This document shows, piece by piece, positions 1 to 45,802 of a DNA stretch of 64,000 nt; within the stretch, counting starts at the first letter, position 1; each line of letters starts with the position of its first letter. The notes beneath the pieces are model-generated. The model saw only the letters and a list, made by a program, of their open reading frames with translations. It ran no database searches and was not told where the DNA came from. The stretch lies in NCBI GenBank assembly GCA_965216935.1, contig OZ244217.1, positions 3,597,565 to 3,661,564 of the forward strand. Reading direction: 5' to 3'. This DNA is from Acidobacteriota bacterium. GTDB taxonomy: Bacteria; Acidobacteriota; UBA890. Position numbers and translations under genes: made by a program.

Positions 1-10
1 GAGTAGGTGC

Positions 11-2008
11 TTGCGGAAGGCCGCGAATCGACGACTTCGCGACATCGGCGACGCTCGCATCGAGATCGAGGAAGCGATCGCCGAGCCCGTCGACGCCGTC
101 GTCAGCTCGGGACCATCCACAAGAGATGCGGCGTCCCGGAAGATCTCGCCGGTGCTTCTCTTTGGGATCGGCGTCGCTCTGGGTCTGATTGTCGCGATTG
201 CCGGGACCTTCCTCCTATCACCTGAAACGCCGAGTGATGTCAGCTACTTGGAGCTACCCCTGGAGTCCGGCACCCGTCTTTGGGGCGGGCATACGGACGA
301 AGCACGGATCGGGGGCGACCGTCCGAGCCGTTCCGCTTTCGTGCTCACTCCTGACGGCCGGGCCGTCATCTACGCCGCCACCGACGGTGATACCGGTCGT
401 CTCTACCTGCGCCGCCTCGAGAATCCGGAGGCGACTCCGATCAGCGACACCGAGGGCGGATCGAGCCCGTTTCTGCATCCAAACGGGCAGGAGGTAGGAT
501 TCGTCGTCGGTAGGGACATCCGGGTCGCACCCATCAGCGGAGGCGGATCGCGCACGATTCTGCAGAACGCGCCGTTCGACGTCGACGGCCCCTATGGCCT
601 GGATTGGACCGAGGAGGGGATCGTCTTCGCCGGCACGGATGGGATCTACCTTCTCCCGAACACGGGCGGCGACCCGAGGCCGCTGACCAGGGTGCGCCGG
701 GACCAGGGCGAGTCGTTCCATATTCAACCGGAGCTTGTGTCGGGCGGCATGGTGTTGCTCTACACGGTCTTGCGGTCCCGTTTCATACGGGGATTGGATG
801 AGGCGAGTATCGTGGCCCTGCCGCTCGCGGGTGACGCCACCGTCGCCGAGCCGGTGGACCTCCTCCAGGGGGCTGCTGACACCGTGTACATGCCGAGTGG
901 CCACCTGTTGTTCGGCCGGTGGGGGGTACTGATGGTCGCCGGCTTCGATCCCGAGCGACTGGAGCTGACCCACGAGGCCGTGCCCGTCTTCGAAGACGTC
1001 ATGCAGGCCATGAATGCGGCCAACGGCACGATCGGTACGGGCGCTGCGCAATTCAGCGTCTCGGAATCCGGGGCGCTACTGTACGCGCCCGGGGGTGTCT
1101 ACCCGGAGCCCGATCACCAACCCGTCTGGGTGTCCCGCGCCGGCGATGTCGATGAACGGATTTCCCTTCCGGCCTGGAACCGCTCTTTCATGTATCCACG
1201 GATCTCACCCGACGGCGGGCGGGTGGCGTACAGGGGCCCCACGCAATCCGACCGGGACATAATCGTGTTCGATCTCGAGAGTGAGGGGGCCCATCCGTTG
1301 CCGCTGCCGGGTGTTCAGACAACGCCGGCGTGGAGCCCGGACGACACACACTTGGCGTTCGAATCGGATCACGAAACGGGCGATCCGCAGCTCTATACGG
1401 TCACCTCCGACCTGAGCGGCGACCCGGAACGCCTCACCGACACGCCAAACTTCCAAGGTGTCGTTGGCTGGTCGGACGACGAGATCCTCTTCAGGGAGGG
1501 CAGGGACATCTGGGCCGTCGCTGCTGACGGAAGCGGGGACCCCGCGGCGATTGTCGAGGGACCGGAGAGAAAATGGTGGCCGGCACTATCTCCGAATGGA
1601 GATTGGCTAGCCTATGCTTCCGACAGATCCGGGCAGTTCCAAATCTACGTGCGACCGTATCCCGCCGGTGTTCCCGAGTACACGGTCACGGTCGAAGGCG
1701 GCACCCGGCCAACTTGGTCCCTCGACAACTCCGAGCTCTTCTACCGGACCGGGACCGACGATCGCTCCGCGATGATGGCCGTGGAGGTCAGCTTTGAGGG
1801 AGGCTTTGAGTGGGAAGAGCCGCGCAAACTGTTCGATCGTCCAATGCTAGGCTCGTCGCCTTTGCGCAGCTACGACGTGGCAGCGGACGGCCGCTTCCTG
1901 ATGATAGAAGAGTGGCAGCCCCCTCCCCAGCCGGTAACCCAACTTCGGCTCGTGCTCAACTGGTTCGAGGAGCTGAACCGCCTCGTGCCAACGGACGGCT
2001 CCCGATGA
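11..2008 (+). CDS. membrane-anchored WD40-like (PD40/TolB-type) beta-propeller repeat protein; possibly 5'-partial (listed start is TTG, no in-frame stop before it in the window)
   Basis: Single N-terminal TM helix (PVLLFGIGVALGLIVAIAGTFLL) followed by repeated units with RISPDGGRVAY / WSPDDTHLAF / LSPNGDWLAY motifs typical of TolB-like propellers. Its stop overlaps the downstream ATG (ATGA). Confidence 0.7.
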   Translation: MRKAANRRLRDIGDARIEIEEAIAEPVDAVVSSGPSTRDAASRKISPVLLFGIGVALGLIVAIAGTFLLSPETPSDVSYLELPLESGTRLWGGHTDEARIGGDRPSRSAFVLTPDGRAVIYAATDGDTGRLYLRRLENPEATPISDTEGGSSPFLHPNGQEVGFVVGRDIRVAPISGGGSRTILQNAPFDVDGPYGLDWTEEGIVFAGTDGIYLLPNTGGDPRPLTRVRRDQGESFHIQPELVSGGMVLLYTVLRSRFIRGLDEASIVALPLAGDATVAEPVDLLQGAADTVYMPSGHLLFGRWGVLMVAGFDPERLELTHEAVPVFEDVMQAMNAANGTIGTGAAQFSVSESGALLYAPGGVYPEPDHQPVWVSRAGDVDERISLPAWNRSFMYPRISPDGGRVAYRGPTQSDRDIIVFDLESEGAHPLPLPGVQTTPAWSPDDTHLAFESDHETGDPQLYTVTSDLSGDPERLTDTPNFQGVVGWSDDEILFREGRDIWAVAADGSGDPAAIVEGPERKWWPALSPNGDWLAYASDRSGQFQIYVRPYPAGVPEYTVTVEGGTRPTWSLDNSELFYRTGTDDRSAMMAVEVSFEGGFEWEEPRKLFDRPMLGSSPLRSYDVAADGRFLMIEEWQPPPQPVTQLRLVLNWFEELNRLVPTDGSR

Positions 2009-2232
2009 TCGGCACGCTGCCGGACGAGCTGCACCGCGCGTTGAAATAAAGCGCCGCTCGCCGCGATACGACCATCGGCGAGCTGGTGGCGGAGAGTCTC
2101 GAGTTCTACGGCATCAAGACTTCGGCTGCGGCGGATGAATTGGTGGCAGCGGCGCGGGAGCTCAGCGGTCTTAGCGAGGGCGAGGCCACGAAGCTGGCCG
2201 TTGAGGAGACGCGGGCCGAGCGAGCCGGTTGA
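2005..2232 (+). pseudogene. vapB: ribbon-helix-helix VapB/ParD-like antitoxin interrupted by an in-frame TAA at 2047-2049
   Basis: Translation MIGTLPDELHRALK*SAARRDTTIGELVAESLEFYGIK... matches the RHH antitoxin consensus (LPDELHxxLKxxAAxxxxSxxELVREAL) across the stop. The 3' end overlaps the PIN toxin start by 4 nt (TTGA). Confidence 0.5.
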
Positions 2233-2651
2233 AGCGTCGTCCGGCGATCATCGACACTAACGTGGTCGTCGCAGGATTGTTGACCGCCGATGTCGATGCA
2301 CCGCCAGCGCGGATCCTCGACGCCATGATTCGCGGCAGTCTTCCGTTCGTCCTGTCGGTACCGCTGCTCGCCGCGTATCGCCGCGTGCTGACGCGGCCCC
2401 GTATCAGCAAACGGCACGGGTTGACGTCCGACGCGATCGATCGCCTGCTGACCACCCTTGCCGGCAACGCCATCGTGCGCGAACCGCCTGCGGCCGCAAG
2501 CGCGCCCCCCGATCCCGGCGACCAGCACCTCTGGGACCTCTTGTCCGCCGTCCCGAACGCGGTTCTCGTGACCGGGGACCTGAAGTTGATCGACGGCGCT
2601 CCGCACGGACTGTCGGCGATGTCCGCACGCTCGTTTCTCGCGCTCGACTAA
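2229..2651 (+). CDS. vapC: PIN-domain toxin (VapC family), TTG start
   Basis: N-terminal IIDTNVVVAGLL and a 140-aa length with conserved acidic positions (VLVTGDLKLID). It is translationally coupled to the upstream RHH ORF. Confidence 0.75.
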   Translation: MKRRPAIIDTNVVVAGLLTADVDAPPARILDAMIRGSLPFVLSVPLLAAYRRVLTRPRISKRHGLTSDAIDRLLTTLAGNAIVREPPAAASAPPDPGDQHLWDLLSAVPNAVLVTGDLKLIDGAPHGLSAMSARSFLALD

Positions 2652-2713
2652 GGAGCGCGGCGCTGGCAGGCGCTGCCGTCCGGTTGGTAGCCGAAGCCTC
2701 GGGCAGCATGTGG

Positions 2714-3571
2714 TCAGGCTCCCTCCTCGAACGATTCGGCGAGCGCGAGACCGGTCTGCATCAGATCACCGGCTTCATCGATCGTGAGCAACCCATGGGC
2801 CAGATCGGTGTCTCGATCGCCGCCGGCCAGACGAACGTTCCGCGAAAACAGCAGCCACTGCCCGTCCGCCGCGACAATCAGCCCGGGGGTCGCGAGCAGG
2901 CGGTCGATGATCTCATCGGTCAGCACACGGTCGATCGCCCCCGGATCGTCGCCGTAGATCTTCATCGCTTGCTCGAAGTCCGCACGTCGCCCGCAGGGCA
3001 GCGAGCCGGGCCGTTCACGCATGGCCACGACGGTTTGGGCCAACCCGCGGATCAGACCGACACCGAGCCCGGCGGAATCAGGCCCCGATCGGCCCTTTGC
3101 GCCCATCTCGGCGGCTGCCTGCTGCATGGCGACATCGACGAATTCTTCGGTCATCCTGCCGAGGTTCGGCAGCAGTTCGAATCGGGGCAGCGATCGGCCG
3201 TCGCGGCGCAAGCAAACCACCGTGTGCCGGCTGCGCTCGGCGCGCGACTCGTCGGACCCGGTGATTTCCGTGTTGTAGCCCATTTCGGTGCGGCCGCTGT
3301 TTTCGATGTCGAACACGACGATCCGCTCGTCGCCCCGCGATGCGTCGACGACCTGCCGGACCCGCTTCGGCTTCGGCACGATCGCCCAGGTGGGCATGCC
3401 ATCCGGGTAGGCCCCCTCCGCGGTGCCGTGGAACCCGAGGCGTCCGGCCGCTTCGAGAATGCCCTCCCACCGTAGCCTCCGTGCTTCCCTCTCACGAGCC
3501 ACGTGCTTTCGGACCAGTGCGACCAGGGCGGCCAGGCCGACCACGGCGAGGACACTGATCGCCCAGCTCAC
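2714..3571 (-). CDS. hypothetical N-terminally membrane-anchored protein
   Basis: A GTG start with a GAGG 8 nt upstream gives MSWAISVLAVVGLAALVALV (TM helix) and a ~260-aa soluble domain. No recognisable family. The 360-aa ORF-track version adds an Arg-rich, non-coding-looking N-terminus. Confidence 0.4.
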   Translation of the reverse strand: MSWAISVLAVVGLAALVALVRKHVAREREARRLRWEGILEAAGRLGFHGTAEGAYPDGMPTWAIVPKPKRVRQVVDASRGDERIVVFDIENSGRTEMGYNTEITGSDESRAERSRHTVVCLRRDGRSLPRFELLPNLGRMTEEFVDVAMQQAAAEMGAKGRSGPDSAGLGVGLIRGLAQTVVAMRERPGSLPCGRRADFEQAMKIYGDDPGAIDRVLTDEIIDRLLATPGLIVAADGQWLLFSRNVRLAGGDRDTDLAHGLLTIDEAGDLMQTGLALAESFEEGA

Positions 3572-3922
3572 GGCCGGGCCTCGAATGTCGTCTGAAGGGA
3601 CAAGCCGGCGGTGCGGTTCATCGTGGACTCCTTGGCGGCGAGATCTCGGGTGCTCCTGCGAGCGATTCTCCCAGCCGGAAGCGAACCACGATCGGCGCGT
3701 GCGTTGCCACGTCGTCGTTCTCGAAACGATGGATGAAGCCCCCTCGTGTCTCACCAACCCCACCGCTGGCCACGGATAGTACTGCCGCCTCCCCACTCTC
3801 GGCTACGGCCCGCCCTTAGCGCAGCTCCGGCAGGCAAGCATCAAACGCGATGGTGCCGACGATCGCCGGCTGATTGTCCCGTACGGTATCGTATGCGTCA
3901 CGGGAGCTCGATCGATACCAAG

Positions 3923-3991
3923 ACATTCCCGAACGGTAGTATTAACCTTGCCGAGGACTCAGATCCCCTGATACATTCCCGTTCGGGAATG
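3923..3991 (+). promoter_or_regulatory. candidate HipB operator: half-site ACATTCCCGAACGG (3923-3936) plus perfect-arm palindrome CATTCCCG-TT-CGGGAATG (3974-3991)
   Basis: Inverted repeat read directly. It lies 64-130 nt upstream of the hipB start codon. Confidence 0.45.
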
Positions 3992-4054
3992 CGTCGCGGT
4001 GTGCCCCAACCAGGACGCGTCGCGCGAGAGGAGTCGGGCGCGAGGAGTCGGGAG

Positions 4055-4351
4055 ATGACGCCAGCACGGCCTTCGGCCAAATCACACGCATCAGCGGAGG
4101 CGCCTAGCCGACGGATCGTCACCGCCGAAGACCTCGGACGCGCGATCCAGCGGCGGCGGGCGGATCTCGGACACACGCAGGCCGAGGCCGCGGCGCTGTG
4201 CAACGTCGGCGTTCGCTTTCTTTCCGAGCTGGAGCGGGGTAAACCCACCGCGGAGATCGGCAAGGCGTTGAAGGTTGCCCGGAGGCTCGGCTTGGAGCTC
4301 GCGCTCGAGGCGCGTGGCGACAGTGCCCGGCAACCGGGCGAAGGACCGTGA
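4055..4351 (+). CDS. hipB: XRE-family helix-turn-helix antitoxin HipB
   Basis: RIVTAEDLGRAIQRRRADLGHTQAEAAALCNVGVRFLSELERGKPTAEIGKALKVARRLGLEL is an XRE HTH. The stop overlaps the hipA GTG (GTGA). The longer 201-aa ORF upstream extension looks non-coding. Confidence 0.75.
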   Translation: MTPARPSAKSHASAEAPSRRIVTAEDLGRAIQRRRADLGHTQAEAAALCNVGVRFLSELERGKPTAEIGKALKVARRLGLELALEARGDSARQPGEGP

Positions 4352-5628
4352 GCTCCGTGGAAACCTCGGAGGGCGCCGCCGACGTACTGCGGGTCGGATT
4401 CGCTGGTCGCGCCGTCGGCGAGTTGCGGCATGACGGCGACGGACATCTCTCCTTCCGCTACACCGACGAGTGGCTGGATGGCGGGTTCGCCATCTCGCTG
4501 AGCATGCCCCTCCGCGATCGCGTCTACGACGATGTGGCCCAACGCTTCTTCGTCAACCTGTTGCCGGAGGGGCAGGTCCGCGCGCTGGTGGCGCGCCGCC
4601 TCGGGGTCTCCGAGGACAACGACTGGGAGCTGTTGGTGGCGCTCGGCGGCGATTGCGCCGGCGCGCTGACGTTGACCGAAACCATCGATGAACCGGCGCC
4701 ACCGGTCTATCGGGAGCTGACCATCGACGAGCTGCGCTCGCTCGCAGCCACGCCACACCCCGGCCTTGCGGCGATCAGCGGCGAACAAGATCTGCGTTTG
4801 TCCCTCGCCGGTGCCCAGGACAAGTTGCCCGTGCGGGCGACGGCGGAGGGAGAGTATCGGCTTCCGCTGGGCGCCGCCCCGAGCACGCACATCATCAAGT
4901 TTGCGGGCACCGATTTCGCCCATCTGACCGCCAACGAGGTGTTCGTTACCGATCTTGCCCGGCGCCTCGATCTTCCGGTCTCGCCCACGACGCTGGACAC
5001 GCGGTTCGATCCGCCGTTGTGCGTCGTTGAGCGCTACGACCGCGTCCTCCTTGCCGACGACAGCGTGCGCCGGGTCCACCAGGAGGACCTCTGCCAGGCC
5101 TTGGGCCTCCCCTACACGCGCAAGTACGAGGCGGAGGGCGGTCCGGATCTCGCGGCTGTCGTGGCGTTGCTCGATACCCATGCTGCCGATCCCATCGGGG
5201 ATCGGCGCGCACTGATTCGCTGGCTGGCATTTTGCCTGCTGGTCGGCAACGCCGACGGCCACGGCAAGAACCTGTCGTTGCTGTACGACGGCGCGGCGCC
5301 CCGCCTGGCGCCGTTCTACGACCTGTTGAGCACCGCCGTCTACCCGGGAATCAGCCAACGGCTGGCGCTGTCCGTCGCCGGCCAGGCAGACCCGGGCGAT
5401 GTGAAGCGTGCCGACTGGCTGCGCCTCGGGCGCCAGCTCGACGTTCGTCCCGCATACGTCCTCGATCTCGTCGACGAGATGACGACCGCGCTAGCCGTTG
5501 TTCTCGAACGATCCGAGGCGGAGTTTCGCGACGCCTACGGCGAATCGCCGATCCTGCAGATGGTGCCGCCCCTGGTCCGGCGCCGGGGACGACGAGCCCG
5601 GAGCATGTTGCGGGAAGCAAAGGGCTGA
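4348..5628 (+). CDS. hipA: HipA-family serine/threonine kinase toxin
   Basis: HipA_N region (GELRHDGDGHLSFRYTDEWLDGGFAISLSMPL), GAQDKLPV motif, and C-terminal LLVGNADGHGKNLSLLYDG...APFYDLLST. Length is 426 aa. Confidence 0.85.
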   Translation: MSSVETSEGAADVLRVGFAGRAVGELRHDGDGHLSFRYTDEWLDGGFAISLSMPLRDRVYDDVAQRFFVNLLPEGQVRALVARRLGVSEDNDWELLVALGGDCAGALTLTETIDEPAPPVYRELTIDELRSLAATPHPGLAAISGEQDLRLSLAGAQDKLPVRATAEGEYRLPLGAAPSTHIIKFAGTDFAHLTANEVFVTDLARRLDLPVSPTTLDTRFDPPLCVVERYDRVLLADDSVRRVHQEDLCQALGLPYTRKYEAEGGPDLAAVVALLDTHAADPIGDRRALIRWLAFCLLVGNADGHGKNLSLLYDGAAPRLAPFYDLLSTAVYPGISQRLALSVAGQADPGDVKRADWLRLGRQLDVRPAYVLDLVDEMTTALAVVLERSEAEFRDAYGESPILQMVPPLVRRRGRRARSMLREAKG

Positions 5629-5719
5629 AGCGCACGCACGATCGCGGCTCTCGTGACCAACTCCGGGCTGGCGGCCGACTGGGGTTTGCCTCGAATCACC
5701 GACGTCGCCCGTCCCGAAG

Positions 5720-6115
5720 TCAGGTCGATCCCAGAGACCGCGCGAATTCGGGGAATGCCGCGAGCAACCGTGCGTCCTCGGTCACCAGGTCGACGGACAA
5801 GAGTTGAGCAAGCGCGGCGTACTCGCAATCGTAGGCGGAACAGCGGGATTCGGCCGCCAGGGTCAGCACCAGGCGTGTCGGGACGAGATGCTGGCGGCCA
5901 CCGAGGACCATCTCCGCGCACGACCAGAGCTCGGCGGCCGCGTCCAGATTCATGTCGCCACGCCGCACATACCTACTCAGTACCTGACGCAATTCGCTCC
6001 GCCACAGCAACGGGGCCGCCCACTCGGCGTCCTCACGCAACAACCGCTCTGCGGCCGCGGCCCGTGGCCCCGGAAGCACCAGATACGCCAACACGTTCGT
6101 ATCGACGACGATCAC
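5720..6115 (-). CDS. vapC: PIN-domain toxin (VapC family)
   Basis: MIVVDTNVLAYLVL... with a 131-aa length. The start overlaps the upstream antitoxin stop by 4 nt. Confidence 0.75.
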   Translation of the reverse strand: MIVVDTNVLAYLVLPGPRAAAAERLLREDAEWAAPLLWRSELRQVLSRYVRRGDMNLDAAAELWSCAEMVLGGRQHLVPTRLVLTLAAESRCSAYDCEYAALAQLLSVDLVTEDARLLAAFPEFARSLGST

Positions 6116-42673: not shown

Positions 42674-42694
42674 TCCGTCCGGGAAGGCGGCACC

Positions 42695-43726
42695 GTGGCC
42701 GATGACGCGGCACACCGGAATCCGGAAGCTCCGGCCTCCGACCCACTCGCCGAGATCCGGGACCTCCTGCGCGATTTCGAAGGCGAAGCGGTCGAGGTGC
42801 GCGATCAGCCCGGTCTCGACGAGCTCCGCGCCCGCTACATAGGTCGCAAGCGCGGCAGGCTCACCGCCGTCTTCGACGGCCTGCGCAATGTCGCCAAGGA
42901 GTCGCGCGGCGAGGTCGGGCGAGCGGCGAACCACGCCCGCAGCACGATCGAGGCGCGCCTCGACGAGCTGAGCGGCAGTCTCTCGACGACAGCCGACGAG
43001 GGCGCCGAGCAACTCGACGTGACCCTCCCGGGCCGCGTCGACGAGGGTGGCTCCCTGCACCCGATCACGCTGGCACTGGAGGAGATCGTCAGCGTATTCA
43101 CCCGCATGGGATACAAGGTGGTGGGCGGCCCGGAGGTCGAGCACGACTTCTACAACTTCGAGGCCCTCAATATCCCGCGCGACCACCCGGCGCGCGATAT
43201 CCAGGACACGCTGTACCTGAACGACGACTGGCTGCTCCGCACGCATACGTCGCCGGTGCAGATTCGCACCATGCAGAAGCAGGAGCCGCCGCTGGCGATC
43301 ATCGTGCCCGGGCGGGTCTACCGTCGCGATACCCCGGACGCCACCCATACGCCTTCGTTCGTCCAGTGCGAGGGTCTGGTGATCGACCGCAACATCACCA
43401 TGGCCGACCTCAAGGGGACACTCGATCACTTCGCCAAAGCGCTGTTCGGGCCCCACACCGAAACCCGCCTGCGGCCCGGATATTTTCCGTTCACCGAGCC
43501 CTCGGCCGAGATGGACGCCAATGCCGGCGACGGCTGGATCGAGATGCTCGGCTGCGGCATGGTCCACCCGAACGTGCTCGAAGCGGTCGGCTACGACCCG
43601 CAGGTCTGGCAGGGATTCGCTTTCGGGATGGGGATCGACCGCATCGCCGCACTGCGATTCGGCATTCAGGACATCCGCATCTTTTACGAGAACGACGCCC
43701 GCTTCCTGCGTCAGTTCGCCGTCTGA
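42695..43726 (+). CDS. pheS: phenylalanine--tRNA ligase alpha subunit
   Basis: Class II motifs FPFTEPSAEMD and GMGIDRIA. Confidence 0.9.
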   Translation: MADDAAHRNPEAPASDPLAEIRDLLRDFEGEAVEVRDQPGLDELRARYIGRKRGRLTAVFDGLRNVAKESRGEVGRAANHARSTIEARLDELSGSLSTTADEGAEQLDVTLPGRVDEGGSLHPITLALEEIVSVFTRMGYKVVGGPEVEHDFYNFEALNIPRDHPARDIQDTLYLNDDWLLRTHTSPVQIRTMQKQEPPLAIIVPGRVYRRDTPDATHTPSFVQCEGLVIDRNITMADLKGTLDHFAKALFGPHTETRLRPGYFPFTEPSAEMDANAGDGWIEMLGCGMVHPNVLEAVGYDPQVWQGFAFGMGIDRIAALRFGIQDIRIFYENDARFLRQFAV

Positions 43727-43732
43727 CCTGCC

Positions 43733-45802
43733 ATGCTCTTCTCCGCCAATTGGCTGGCACGCTACGTCGACACACCGAGCTCCGTCGAGGAGCTCGGTGA
43801 GGTCCTGACGCGCTGCGGCATGGTGGTCGACGCTAGCCGATCGTCCGGCGACGACACCGTGTTCGACCTCGACATCCCCTCGAACCGGGTCGACGCAATG
43901 AACCACTTCGGCGTCGCCCGGGAGATCGCTACGGCGCTGCGCACCAGCCTCGGCGAGCCGGATACCAGCGCGCCCGAGGCCGCGACACCGATCGGGGACC
44001 TGACTTCGGTCACCATCGAAGACCTGGAAGGCTGCCCCCGCTACGCCGCCCGTCTGATCCGTGACGTCCGGGTGGCCCCCTCGCCGCCCTGGATGGTCAA
44101 GCTTCTCGAAGCCATCGGGCTGCGACCACTGAACAACGTCGCCGACATCACCAACTTCGTCCTCTGGGAGCTCGGACACCCGCTGCATGCGTTCGATTTC
44201 GACCGTCTGTCGGGCCGCCGGATCGTCGTGCGCCGGGCCCGCGAGGGCGAATCTCTCGAGACGCTCGACGGTGTCGAGCGCGAGTTGGCGACCTCTGACG
44301 TGATTATCGCCGACGACGCACGTCCGGTAGCCGTGGCCGGAATCATGGGCGGGAACGATACGGCAATCTCCGATCTTTCGACCAACGTCCTGTTGGAAGG
44401 CGCGTGGTTCGATCCCGCTGCGGTACGGGCAACGGCACAGCGCCTCAACCTGCACACCGACGCAAGCCATCGCTTCGAGCGCACCCCGGCGCGTGACGGC
44501 ATGCTGCGGGCGCTCGATCGCGCCGCCACCCTGATCATCGAGCTCGCCGGGGGCGAGTTGGCCGCCGGAACCATCGACGAGAAGGGCCCGCTCCCGGAAC
44601 CGGTAGCGACCGAGCTGCGTGCGGCGCGCCTCGCCGGAATCCTCGGGATCGAGGTCGGGGCCGAGGATGTCGAGGATATTCTCGAGCGGTTGGGCTTCCG
44701 GGTCTTGGCCCGGGAAGGCGGGTTCGAGGTCCAGGTCCCGACCTATCGTCCCGACGTCACCCGTGAAGAGGACCTGATCGAGGAAGTCGGGCGGCACGTC
44801 GGGTACGATCGCCTGCCGGCAACCTTACCGGTGATCCCGGCATCCGAGGAGGCCGGCACCCCCGAGGTTCTCGGCGAGCAGCGCCTCAAGCGCCGCCTTT
44901 CCGCCGCCGGCTGCTACGAAGCGATGTCGAGCTCCTTGAGCTCGGAGTCCGAGCAGCGCCCGTTCCTGGACGACACCGACGAGCTCGTCCGCATCGGCAA
45001 TCCGATCTCCGAGGGCTTCGCGGTGTTGCGTGCGCACCTGATTCCGGGCCTGCTCAACGCCGTGGCCTTCAACATCAACCATGGGCAAACCGACCTGCGG
45101 CTGTTCGAGCTCGGACGCCGATTCGGCGGCCCGCTGACGGACGACGGTATTACCGAGCGTTGGGGGCTGGGTATCGCCATGACCGGGCGTCGCAACCGGC
45201 CGCACTGGAGCGGACAATCCTCTCCGTTGGATTTCTTCGACCTGAAGGGAACCGTGGAAGATGTCAGCCGCCAGATGGCCTGGCCGCGGTGGCACTGGGC
45301 CGCCGGCCAGCGCGCCGGACTGGATCCGGCCGCAACCGCGCTGCTGCACGCCGGGGGCGACGGTTCCCCGGCGGCGAGCGGATGGGCCGGCAGGTTGGAC
45401 CCGGCCGCGGCGGCGGCGTTCGGCATCGAGGCGGACGTCTGGGTCGCCGAGCTCGATATCGAGGAGCTCCTGGCGCAGCCACATCCCACTGCCCGCCACC
45501 AGCCGATATCACGCTTCCCGGGTGGGACCCGCGATGTAGCGCTCGTCTTGCCGCAAGACGTTCGATTCGGCGATCTGCGGGATACTGCGCGCGCCACGGC
45601 AGCGGATCAGGGGCTGCCGCTCGCGACGCTGACGTTGGTCGAGGTCTACGTCGGTGAAGAGATTCCCCCGGACGCGCGCGGCCTGACGCTGCGATTCGGC
45701 TTTCGCGCCGACGATCGCACCCTGACTGCCGACGAGATCGACGCGGCCCAACGAGCCCTCGTCGGCGCGTTGACTACGGCTCACGACGCCCGCCAACGCT
45801 GA
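43733..45802 (+). CDS. pheT: phenylalanine--tRNA ligase beta subunit
   Basis: B3/4, B5 and anticodon-binding domain order. 689 aa, directly after pheS. Confidence 0.9.
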   Translation: MLFSANWLARYVDTPSSVEELGEVLTRCGMVVDASRSSGDDTVFDLDIPSNRVDAMNHFGVAREIATALRTSLGEPDTSAPEAATPIGDLTSVTIEDLEGCPRYAARLIRDVRVAPSPPWMVKLLEAIGLRPLNNVADITNFVLWELGHPLHAFDFDRLSGRRIVVRRAREGESLETLDGVERELATSDVIIADDARPVAVAGIMGGNDTAISDLSTNVLLEGAWFDPAAVRATAQRLNLHTDASHRFERTPARDGMLRALDRAATLIIELAGGELAAGTIDEKGPLPEPVATELRAARLAGILGIEVGAEDVEDILERLGFRVLAREGGFEVQVPTYRPDVTREEDLIEEVGRHVGYDRLPATLPVIPASEEAGTPEVLGEQRLKRRLSAAGCYEAMSSSLSSESEQRPFLDDTDELVRIGNPISEGFAVLRAHLIPGLLNAVAFNINHGQTDLRLFELGRRFGGPLTDDGITERWGLGIAMTGRRNRPHWSGQSSPLDFFDLKGTVEDVSRQMAWPRWHWAAGQRAGLDPAATALLHAGGDGSPAASGWAGRLDPAAAAAFGIEADVWVAELDIEELLAQPHPTARHQPISRFPGGTRDVALVLPQDVRFGDLRDTARATAADQGLPLATLTLVEVYVGEEIPPDARGLTLRFGFRADDRTLTADEIDAAQRALVGALTTAHDARQR

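What the first reader, a model, noticed from the sequence alone, without database searches (positions are those of the whole stretch)
2005..2232. VapB antitoxin broken by an in-frame TAA while its PIN toxin partner looks intact
Reading through the stop at 2047-2049 gives a contiguous RHH antitoxin (MIGTLPDELHRALK-stop-SAARRDTTIGELVAESLEFYGIK...). A single-base change (GAA/AAA/CAA to TAA) explains it. The downstream vapC (TTG start, overlapping) has no obvious lesions. An intact toxin without its antitoxin should be lethal. This implies one of four things: the toxin is dead, the stop is read through, a C-terminal antitoxin fragment is re-initiated (GTG at ~2086), or the stop is a sequencing or assembly error.
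Basis: seen in the sequence. Interest (0 to 1): 0.55.

Follow-up and report, generated by a model that had tools for sequence, protein, structure and literature searches.

The report
Decaying PIN/RHH toxin-antitoxin remnant
This is an ordinary decaying toxin-antitoxin gene pair: the antitoxin has a premature stop and has lost its start and promoter, and it can be lost safely because the toxin has probably lost a catalytic residue.

Summary
ATG 2005, an in-frame TAA at 2047-2049, and the same frame running on to TGA 2230-2232 align to ribbon-helix-helix (RHH) antitoxins across the stop (tblastn E=2e-28). The stop replaces a Glu found in 69 of 75 homologues. None of about 82 related loci has such a stop.

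The toxin is not lesion-free. The PIN_3 ORF (2229-2651) carries Ala (GCG, 2373-2375) where 118 of 120 homologues have Glu. The three closest relatives read GAG in the same DNA context. This Glu is the conserved acidic residue after strand 2. The equivalent E43A change abolishes toxicity in Haemophilus VapC1. It is the window's only departure at 36 highly conserved PIN columns.

Homology to relatives begins only at 2014. The native start, the first ribbon residues (M-x-R-L-T-I) and the family's TTGGTG-repeat promoter/operator are absent. The fragment abuts the end of a PD40-repeat gene.

Best reading: a recently disabled toxin-antitoxin remnant with three lesions. The rest of both genes is still well conserved. 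A sequencing error at 2047 cannot be excluded, because no independent assembly was found. It would not change the picture. Interest is low.

The parts
11..2008 (+). Upstream PD40 (WD40-like beta-propeller) repeat gene. Its stop overlaps the ATG of the antitoxin fragment (ATGA). It is context, and the only plausible source of transcription into the remnant.
   Evidence: PF07676 PD40, E=2.5e-18. Homologues end ...LNWFEEL(K/N/E)RLVPT plus 1-3 residues. The window ends LVPTDGSR*, so the native end lies at about 1996-2002.
1997..2013 (+). Junction of unknown origin between the PD40 homology and the toxin-antitoxin homology. It contains the ATG at 2005 and the near-palindrome CCGAT-G-ATCGG (2002-2012).
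   Evidence: In the DNA alignment with L081, L082, L085 and L014, homology starts at ACGCTGCC (2014). tblastn homology starts at 2014. 10-mer check.
2005..2046 (+). 14-codon N-terminal antitoxin fragment (MIGTLPDELHRALK). Bases 2014-2046 are homologous to antitoxin residues 7-17 of relatives. The ribbon residues M-x-R-L-T-I are missing or replaced.
2047..2049 (+). In-frame TAA replacing the conserved Glu of the 'ALKEAA/ALKESA' motif.
   Evidence: Glu in 69 of 75 homologues. Codon GAG or GAA in relatives. None of about 82 related loci has an in-frame stop.
2050..2232 (+). Rest of the antitoxin reading frame: second half of the RHH domain plus the C-terminal region, presumed to bind the toxin. 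It ends at TGA 2230-2232.
   Evidence: 83-86% identical to the three closest relatives over the whole homologous stretch TLPD...AG (2014-2229). After the stop it matches every column that is at least 90% conserved.
2086..2088 (+). First canonical in-frame start codon (GTG) after the stop. It would give a 48-aa C-terminal fragment. No convincing Shine-Dalgarno sequence precedes it.
   Evidence: The upstream sequence ...CATCGGCGAGCTG was read directly.
2229..2651 (+). Full-length PIN_3 toxin ORF (140 aa, TTG start, 4-nt overlap with the antitoxin stop). It is catalytically compromised.
   Evidence: PF13470 58.9 bits. TIGR00305 36.9 bits. AlphaFold2 pLDDT 91 with a PIN fold.
2373..2375 (+). Codon 49, GCG (Ala), where the family has Glu: an A-to-C change at 2374 in the conserved acidic residue after strand 2.
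   Evidence: Glu in 118 of 120 homologues. It is the only deviation at 36 conserved columns. The three closest relatives read GAG in the context CTCGCCG-A-GTATCG.
2253..2255 (+). Asp9, first conserved acidic residue. Retained.
   Evidence: 120 of 120 homologues. Coordinates.
2520..2522 (+). Asp98, third conserved acidic residue. Retained.
   Evidence: 119 of 120 homologues. Coordinates.
2577..2579 (+). Asp117 (in T-G-D), fourth conserved acidic residue. Retained.
   Evidence: 117 of 120 homologues. Coordinates.

Best explanation
Bases 2005-2651 are a recently inactivated remnant of a type II toxin-antitoxin module: an RHH/CopG-type antitoxin with a PIN_3 toxin. It carries three independent lesions.

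1. A 5' truncation removed the module's own promoter/operator, the native start codon and the first five or six antitoxin codons. These codons form the first half of the DNA-binding ribbon. The fragment is now fused to the 3' end of a PD40-repeat gene.
2. A nonsense change (Glu codon to TAA at 2047-2049) ends the antitoxin after 14 codons.
3. An A-to-C change at 2374 turns the toxin's conserved Glu49 into Ala.

Shown here: all three lesions, and how unusual each is within the family.

Inferred: E49A abolishes or strongly weakens ribonuclease activity. Loss of the promoter, together with loss of translational coupling (the toxin's TTG start overlaps the antitoxin stop and has no Shine-Dalgarno sequence of its own), leaves the toxin poorly expressed. 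Losing the antitoxin is therefore harmless.

The rest of both genes is still well conserved, so the decay appears to be evolutionarily recent. The order of the three events is not resolved. Toxin inactivation or promoter loss most plausibly came before the nonsense mutation.
For: - Stop inside a homologous frame: tblastn E=2e-28 across the stop. Glu at that column in 69 of 75 homologues.
- An uninterrupted antitoxin is present in all related loci that have enough upstream sequence, about 82 of them, apart from one orphan.
- Toxin lesion: Ala49 against Glu in 118 of 120 homologues. It is the only deviation among 36 columns that are at least 90% conserved. GCG against GAG in an identical DNA context in the three closest relatives.
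- Position of residue 49: the AlphaFold2 model (pLDDT 91.3) places D9 after strand 1, residue 49 in the helix after strand 2, D98 at a helix N-terminus and D117 after strand 4. [quoted passage not shown]
- Foldseek top matches include M. tuberculosis VapBC toxins and the PIN proteins PAE2754 and PAE0151.
- The equivalent E43A mutant of Haemophilus VapC1 is expressed but not toxic (PMC4229260).
- 5' truncation: DNA and protein homology begin at 2014. The window deviates at the invariant positions R3, L4, T5 and I6.
- PD40 homologues end 1-3 residues after LVPT, so there is no intergenic space.
- 78 of 82 relatives have at least one TGGTG/CACCA motif in the 90 nt upstream, and 62 of 82 have TTGGTG. 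The window has none, against a background of 0.19 per 90 nt.
- No promoter-like site in 1500-3000.
- A relative with E49G and an intact antitoxin (P0040, seen in two independent assemblies) shows that toxin-first inactivation happens in this family.
Against: - Everything after the stop in the antitoxin, and everything except residue 49 in the toxin, is as well conserved as in functional homologues. This fits very recent decay. It fits equally well continued selection on a C-terminal antitoxin fragment or on the PIN protein.
- PIN_3 proteins are predicted to have 4-7 acidic active-site residues, so loss of one may weaken rather than abolish activity.
- The mapping of Glu49 onto the catalytic Glu of characterised VapCs rests on conservation and predicted topology. 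Profile-profile alignment to Shigella VapC was not significant, and no PIN_3 structure has been solved.
- No reads or independent assembly could be examined.
Confidence: 0.75

Rival explanations
1. The TAA is a sequencing or consensus error. The true codon is GAA or GAG and the antitoxin frame is continuous.
For: A single substitution is enough. The flanking sequence is fully conserved. The base lies between A-runs (TTGAAATAAAGC). The source appears to be one 5.87-Mb contig with no second assembly. No independent copy was found.
Against: - Two further independent lesions sit in the same 650-bp module: E49A and the 5' truncation. Random error does not predict that.
- A rough scan for in-frame stops flanked by coding signal found no other split gene in 64 kb. 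The only flagged + strand case that was examined, the stop at 43724-43726, is the normal pheS/pheT boundary. Frameshifts were not scanned.
- Even with the stop repaired, the protein lacks the native ribbon start and the operator.
Confidence: 0.08
2. The toxin is still at least partly active. It is neutralised without the RHH domain, either by a C-terminal antitoxin fragment re-initiated after the stop (GTG 2086, 48 aa) or in trans by a paralogous antitoxin elsewhere in the genome.
For: - The post-stop region matches all conserved columns. In RHH-PIN systems this C-terminal region is the part that binds the toxin (established knowledge of VapB and FitA; not tested here).
- GTG 2086 lies only 37 nt after the stop.
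- The PIN shows no general decay.
- This family does occur in several copies per genome (tandem pairs in L083).
Against: - No recognisable Shine-Dalgarno sequence precedes GTG 2086, TTG 2140 or GTG 2143 (read).
- There is no promoter of its own.
- E49A hits a residue whose Ala substitution abolishes toxicity in VapC1.
- No paralogue exists within the 64-kb window. The rest of the genome could not be searched.
Confidence: 0.1
3. Translational readthrough of TAA yields a full-length antitoxin.
For: The frame is open and conserved on both sides of the stop.
Against: - TAA is the most efficiently recognised bacterial stop codon, and no bacterial genetic code reassigns it (established knowledge).
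- No readthrough-promoting RNA element or Rfam family is present.
- No relative has a stop here.
- The product would still lack the first half of the ribbon.
Confidence: 0.02

Closest known systems
PIN_3 (PF13470 / TIGR00305 / COG1569) toxins with RHH (CopG-like, PF01402) antitoxins: a VapBC-type type II toxin-antitoxin module
   Same: - Gene order antitoxin then toxin, with a 4-nt stop/start overlap.
- The toxin scores well above both curated cut-offs and has a PIN fold.
- The antitoxin is 83-86% identical to intact relatives, whose sequences reach the RHH_1 gathering score.
   Different: - The antitoxin is 5'-truncated and interrupted by TAA.
- The family's TTGGTG-repeat operator/promoter is absent.
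- The toxin has Ala at the conserved Glu49.
FitAB (Neisseria gonorrhoeae) and VapBC of Shigella and Haemophilus: characterised PIN toxins with DNA-binding antitoxins
   Same: - A PIN toxin with four conserved acidic residues.
- An antitoxin with an N-terminal DNA-binding domain (RHH in FitA) and a C-terminal toxin-binding tail (established knowledge).
- The E43A mutant of VapC1 is non-toxic, which parallels E49A here.
   Different: - A different Pfam family (PF01850, not PF13470).
- No significant sequence or profile alignment.
- Structural similarity is only moderate (TM about 0.6).
Degenerate or orphan toxin-antitoxin loci on chromosomes (pseudogenised modules)
   Same: Inactivating changes in both partners, loss of autoregulation, and no fitness cost expected.
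   Different: The decay here is at an early stage. It has three discrete lesions, and both reading frames are otherwise still family-typical.

Membership tests
PIN_3 toxin (PF13470 / TIGR00305) | Profile match above the curated cut-off | tested here: met
   PF13470: 58.9 bits against a cut-off of 27, residues 6-118. TIGR00305: 36.9 bits against 29.15.
PIN_3 toxin (PF13470 / TIGR00305) | PIN fold (alpha/beta/alpha sandwich) | tested here: met
   AlphaFold2 pLDDT 91.3, pTM 0.86. Foldseek PDB hits are 3ix7, 7vwo, 6a7v, 5x3t, 4xgq, 1v8o and 2fe1. Probability is 0.98-1.00 and TM-score normalised to the query is about 0.5-0.64.
PIN_3 toxin (PF13470 / TIGR00305) | Complete set of conserved acidic active-site residues (D after strand 1, E after strand 2, D at a helix N-terminus, D after strand 4) | tested here: not met
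   D9, D98 and D117 are present. Position 49 is Ala, where 118 of 120 homologues have Glu. The residue-level match to a solved VapC active site could not be shown by sequence. It rests on predicted topology and on PMC5499597.
PIN_3 toxin (PF13470 / TIGR00305) | Ribonuclease activity and growth inhibition | not testable with these tools
   Needs expression of the Ala49 and Glu49 versions.
RHH (CopG-like, PF01402) antitoxin | Profile match above the curated cut-off | tested here: not met
   The window protein, even with Glu restored, gives only sub-threshold hits (PF20605 19.4-19.8 bits against 27.2; PF22513 about 19 bits against 27) and no RHH_1 hit. Three of five intact relatives tested (among them L085 and L014) reach RHH_1 at 22.0-25.3 bits against a cut-off of 20.5.
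RHH (CopG-like, PF01402) antitoxin | N-terminal beta-strand (ribbon) that pairs in the dimer and reads the operator | tested here: not met
   The family has M-x-R-L-T-I-(T/S)-L, with R, L, T and I conserved in at least 95% of homologues. The window has M-I-G-T-L, and homology starts only at T-L.
RHH (CopG-like, PF01402) antitoxin | Uninterrupted reading frame | tested here: not met
   TAA at 2047-2049. None of about 82 related loci has an in-frame stop.
Functional type II toxin-antitoxin operon | Own promoter with operator repeats upstream of the antitoxin (autoregulation) | tested here: not met
   Relatives: TTGGTG in 62 of 82, and at least one TGGTG/CACCA in 78 of 82, within 90 nt upstream. 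The window has none. No promoter-like site in 1500-3000. The fragment abuts the PD40 coding sequence.
Functional type II toxin-antitoxin operon | Antitoxin and toxin genes adjacent with a coupled stop/start | tested here: met
   TTGA overlap at 2229-2232. The relatives show the same 4-nt overlap.

The most novel reading that the evidence does not exclude
The Ala49 PIN protein is not decaying but is kept under selection as a non-toxic or weakly toxic RNA-binding protein. It would be co-transcribed with the PD40 gene. A promoter-less, ribbon-less C-terminal antitoxin fragment, re-initiated at GTG 2086, would still bind it. That would be a toxin-antitoxin pair domesticated into a non-autoregulated two-protein unit.
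Probability: 0.06. Interest if true: 0.4.

Novelty: new member of a known kind. Interest (0 to 1): 0.15.

Why it matters
It removes an apparent paradox. An intact toxin with a broken antitoxin would be lethal, but here the toxin has lost a near-invariant, probably catalytic Glu and the module has lost its promoter.

The locus is a clean early-stage example of how chromosomal toxin-antitoxin modules decay, with the toxin or its expression disabled and the antitoxin then free to break. It is also a reminder for annotation: a full-length PIN ORF is not necessarily a functional toxin. It opens no new question.

A by-product may be useful. The RHH antitoxins of this PIN_3 subgroup have a strongly conserved TTGGTG-repeat motif upstream. 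It is probably their operator.

Tried and rejected
- Exact look-up of the window's PIN protein in public assemblies, to find an independent copy of the locus, found nothing. Its 90% cluster has one member on one 5.87-Mb contig.
- Two metagenome DNA scans found nothing: one with the exact sequence around the stop, one codon-degenerate. The second did not recover the known JGI relative L081 either, so that collection is evidently incomplete for this family.
- Sequence searches of the PDB with the PIN profile and with P0002 gave no meaningful hits.
- hhalign of the PIN_3 profile against Shigella VapC, as a single sequence and as a 30-sequence profile, was not significant. Only the D98 and T-G-D segment aligned, at probability 0.3%. 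The mapping of E49 onto the VapC catalytic Glu therefore rests on topology and conservation.
- An Rfam scan of 1-6000 found nothing.
- The promoter and terminator scan of 1500-3000 found nothing.
- The composition profile shows no island signature.
- A relative-rate check for accelerated evolution of the window's PIN showed only a slight deficit: 56.4% mean identity to 115 homologues, against 57-60% for its four closest relatives.
- The 10-mer CGATGATCGG is shared between the junction and the L085 promoter. I considered it as evidence for an internal deletion and judged it probably chance, because the 10-mer is common.
- Reassignment of TAA was rejected: none is known in bacteria.
Full report
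**1. What the sequence shows**

ATG 2005-2007 sits in an ATGA overlap with the stop codon of a 665-aa upstream ORF. That ORF is a PD40 (WD40-like beta-propeller) repeat protein (PF07676, E=2.5e-18). Fourteen sense codons follow (MIGTLPDELHRALK), then TAA at 2047-2049. The same frame stays open for 60 more codons to TGA 2230-2232.

A 140-aa ORF starts at TTG 2229, overlapping that stop by 4 nt, and ends at 2651. It is a PIN_3 domain protein (PF13470, 58.9 bits against a cut-off of 27; TIGR00305 'putative toxin-antitoxin system toxin component, PIN family', 36.9 bits against 29.15).

**2. Is the interrupted frame really an antitoxin?**

Yes. I collected 80 genomic loci that encode PIN_3 homologues (47-61% identity) and the contigs of the closest relatives (67-73% identity). 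Nearly all carry a gene of about 80 codons directly upstream of, or overlapping, the PIN start.

- The family consensus is M[AS]RLTITLSDERHRALKEAAARRGKTIGQLIEESLEFYGIKT...LVA.AR...L.E.EA..LAVEETRA.R.
- In eight loci my ORF picker chose the wrong frame or found no upstream ORF. tblastn then found an uninterrupted antitoxin in seven of them. The eighth, L040, is a PIN with no antitoxin upstream. A further locus, L004, is cut by the contig end.
- Three of five intact relatives tested reach the RHH_1 (CopG) gathering score, at 22.0-25.3 bits against 20.5, over residues 3-38.
- tblastn of the closest antitoxin (L085) aligns to window 2014-2229 in one frame, with the stop inside the alignment (86% identity, E=2e-28).
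- In an alignment of 75 homologues the stop column is Glu in 69. The codon is GAG in the three closest relatives and GAA in L014.
- None of about 82 related loci with enough upstream sequence has an in-frame stop.

**3.

DNA and protein homology to relatives begins only at 2014 (ACGCTGCCGGAC = T-L-P-D). The window deviates from the family at R3, L4, T5 and I6. R3 and T5 are invariant, and L4 and I6 are at least 95% conserved. These residues form the first half of the RHH ribbon. After the stop, the window matches every column that is at least 90% conserved.

PD40 homologues end with ...LNWFEEL(K/N/E)RLVPT plus 1-3 residues. The window ends LVPTDGSR*. The PD40 gene therefore runs essentially to its natural end at about 1996-2002, and there is no intergenic space.

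In relatives, the 90 nt upstream of the antitoxin carry TTGGTG direct repeats, or TTGGTG...CACCAA palindromes, next to a -10-like TATGGT/TATGAT.

- TTGGTG occurs in 62 of 82 loci.
- At least one TGGTG/CACCA occurs in 78 of 82.
- The window has none, against a background of 0.19 per 90 nt.
- No promoter-like site exists in 1500-3000.

The module has therefore lost its promoter/operator, its native start and five or six codons. The ATG at 2005 lies in a 17-nt junction of unknown origin.

**4. The toxin is not intact**

Among 120 homologues, four acidic positions are conserved.

| Position | Conservation |
|---|---|
| D9 | 120 of 120 |
| E49 | 118 of 120 |
| D98 | 119 of 120 |
| D117 | 117 of 120 |

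The window has Ala at position 49 (LLAAYRRVL against LLAEYRRVL). This is its only deviation among 36 columns that are at least 90% conserved. Homologues deviate at 1.6 such columns on average. The codon is GCG (2373-2375) against GAG in the three closest relatives, within the identical context CTCGCCG-N-GTATCG. That is a single A-to-C change at 2374.

An AlphaFold2 model (pLDDT 91.3) has a PIN fold. Its Foldseek matches include M. tuberculosis VapBC toxins, PAE2754 and PAE0151. The model places the four residues as follows:

- D9 just after strand 1;
- residue 49 in the helix after strand 2;
- D98 at a helix N-terminus;
- D117 after strand 4.

This is the arrangement of PIN active-site residues summarised by Matelska et al. 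[quoted passage not shown] In Haemophilus VapC1 the equivalent E43A mutant is expressed at normal levels but no longer inhibits growth (PMC4229260).

One caveat applies. I could not obtain a significant sequence or profile alignment between PIN_3 and Shigella VapC, nor any PDB sequence hit. The equivalence of Glu49 with the catalytic Glu is therefore inferred from conservation and predicted topology, not shown by superposition.

**5. How it most likely works, or no longer works**

Three lesions are shown in one 650-bp module.

The following steps are inferred:

- E49A abolishes or strongly reduces nuclease activity.
- Without its own promoter, the module is transcribed only by readthrough from the PD40 gene.
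- The PIN's TTG start overlaps the antitoxin stop and has no Shine-Dalgarno sequence of its own. The nearest GAGGAG is more than 20 nt upstream. Termination at 2049, 180 nt earlier, should therefore uncouple and depress toxin translation.

Together these remove any need for the antitoxin, so there is no lethality paradox.

The decay appears recent. The window's PIN is only marginally more divergent from 115 homologues (56.4% mean identity) than its four nearest relatives are (57-60%). The post-stop antitoxin sequence is also family-typical.

A relative, P0040, carries E49G with an intact antitoxin and appears in two independent assemblies. Toxin-first inactivation therefore does occur in this family. 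The order of events in the window itself is unresolved.

**6. Rival explanations**

- **Sequencing error at 2047.** This cannot be excluded, because no reads or second assembly are available. The two other independent lesions argue against chance error. So does the absence of other nonsense-split genes in a rough scan of the window: the only flagged + strand case that was examined is the normal pheS/pheT boundary. Repairing the stop would still leave a promoter-less antitoxin with a truncated ribbon beside an E49A toxin.
- **Re-initiation at GTG 2086, or neutralisation in trans.** This is compatible with the good conservation of the C-terminal region. It has no positive support. There is no Shine-Dalgarno sequence and no paralogue within the window.
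- **Readthrough of TAA.** This has no support. No RNA element was found, and no bacterial genetic code reassigns TAA.

**7. Comparison with known systems, and verdict**

This is a degenerate member of the PIN_3/RHH (VapBC-like) type II toxin-antitoxin family. It passes the profile and fold tests for the toxin and has the family's gene architecture. It fails the tests for a complete acidic active site, an intact ribbon, an uninterrupted antitoxin and an autoregulatory operator.

Pseudogenised toxin-antitoxin loci are well known. The finding is real but ordinary, and the apparent paradox is resolved. Interest is low (0.15).

Noticed in passing
window 3746-4351 (+) and 4348-5628 (+): A second, apparently intact toxin-antitoxin module lies 1.1 kb downstream. 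It is an HTH_3 (HipB-like) ORF overlapping a HipA kinase (Couple_hipA plus HipA_C, E=5.7e-47). The region therefore holds a small cluster of toxin-antitoxin genes.
   Followed up: partly
L001-L085, the 90 nt upstream of each antitoxin start: The RHH antitoxins of this PIN_3 subgroup share a conserved upstream motif. It consists of TTGGTG direct repeats (about 8-bp spacing) or TTGGTG..CACCAA palindromes overlapping a -10-like TATGGT/TATGAT. TTGGTG is present in 62 of 82 loci. It is probably the operator. The window lacks it.
   Followed up: partly
L083 1241-1923 and L084 1189-1871: A relative's PIN_3 (P0040) has Gly (GGT) at the conserved Glu49, with an intact antitoxin upstream and a second PIN_3 pair in tandem. 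The same sequence occurs in two independent metagenome assemblies.
   Followed up: partly
L040 about 236-655: An orphan PIN_3 gene with no antitoxin in the 236 nt available upstream. It keeps Glu49 but has Glu in place of Asp117 (TGE).
   Followed up: no
window 2002-2012: The junction between the PD40 gene and the antitoxin fragment contains the near-palindrome CCGAT-G-ATCGG. The 10-mer CGATGATCGG also lies in the promoter region of the closest relative, L085 (position 447). The 10-mer occurs twice in the window and six times across the loci, so this is probably chance.
   Followed up: partly
window 2714-3796 (-): A 360-aa ORF converging on the 3' end of the PIN gene has no Pfam match. Its function is unknown.
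   Followed up: no
window 42674-45802 (+): pheS (350 aa) and pheT (691 aa) lie in the same reading frame, separated only by a TGA. My in-frame-stop scan flagged this, but it is a normal gene boundary. The pair shows that the window is chromosomal.
   Followed up: yes
window 11-2008 (+): The protein-database search with the PD40 protein's C-terminal 258 residues returned nothing closer than 47% identity, although the neighbouring PIN protein is present at 100%. Either the source annotation does not call this gene, or the word-based candidate selection missed it.
   Followed up: no
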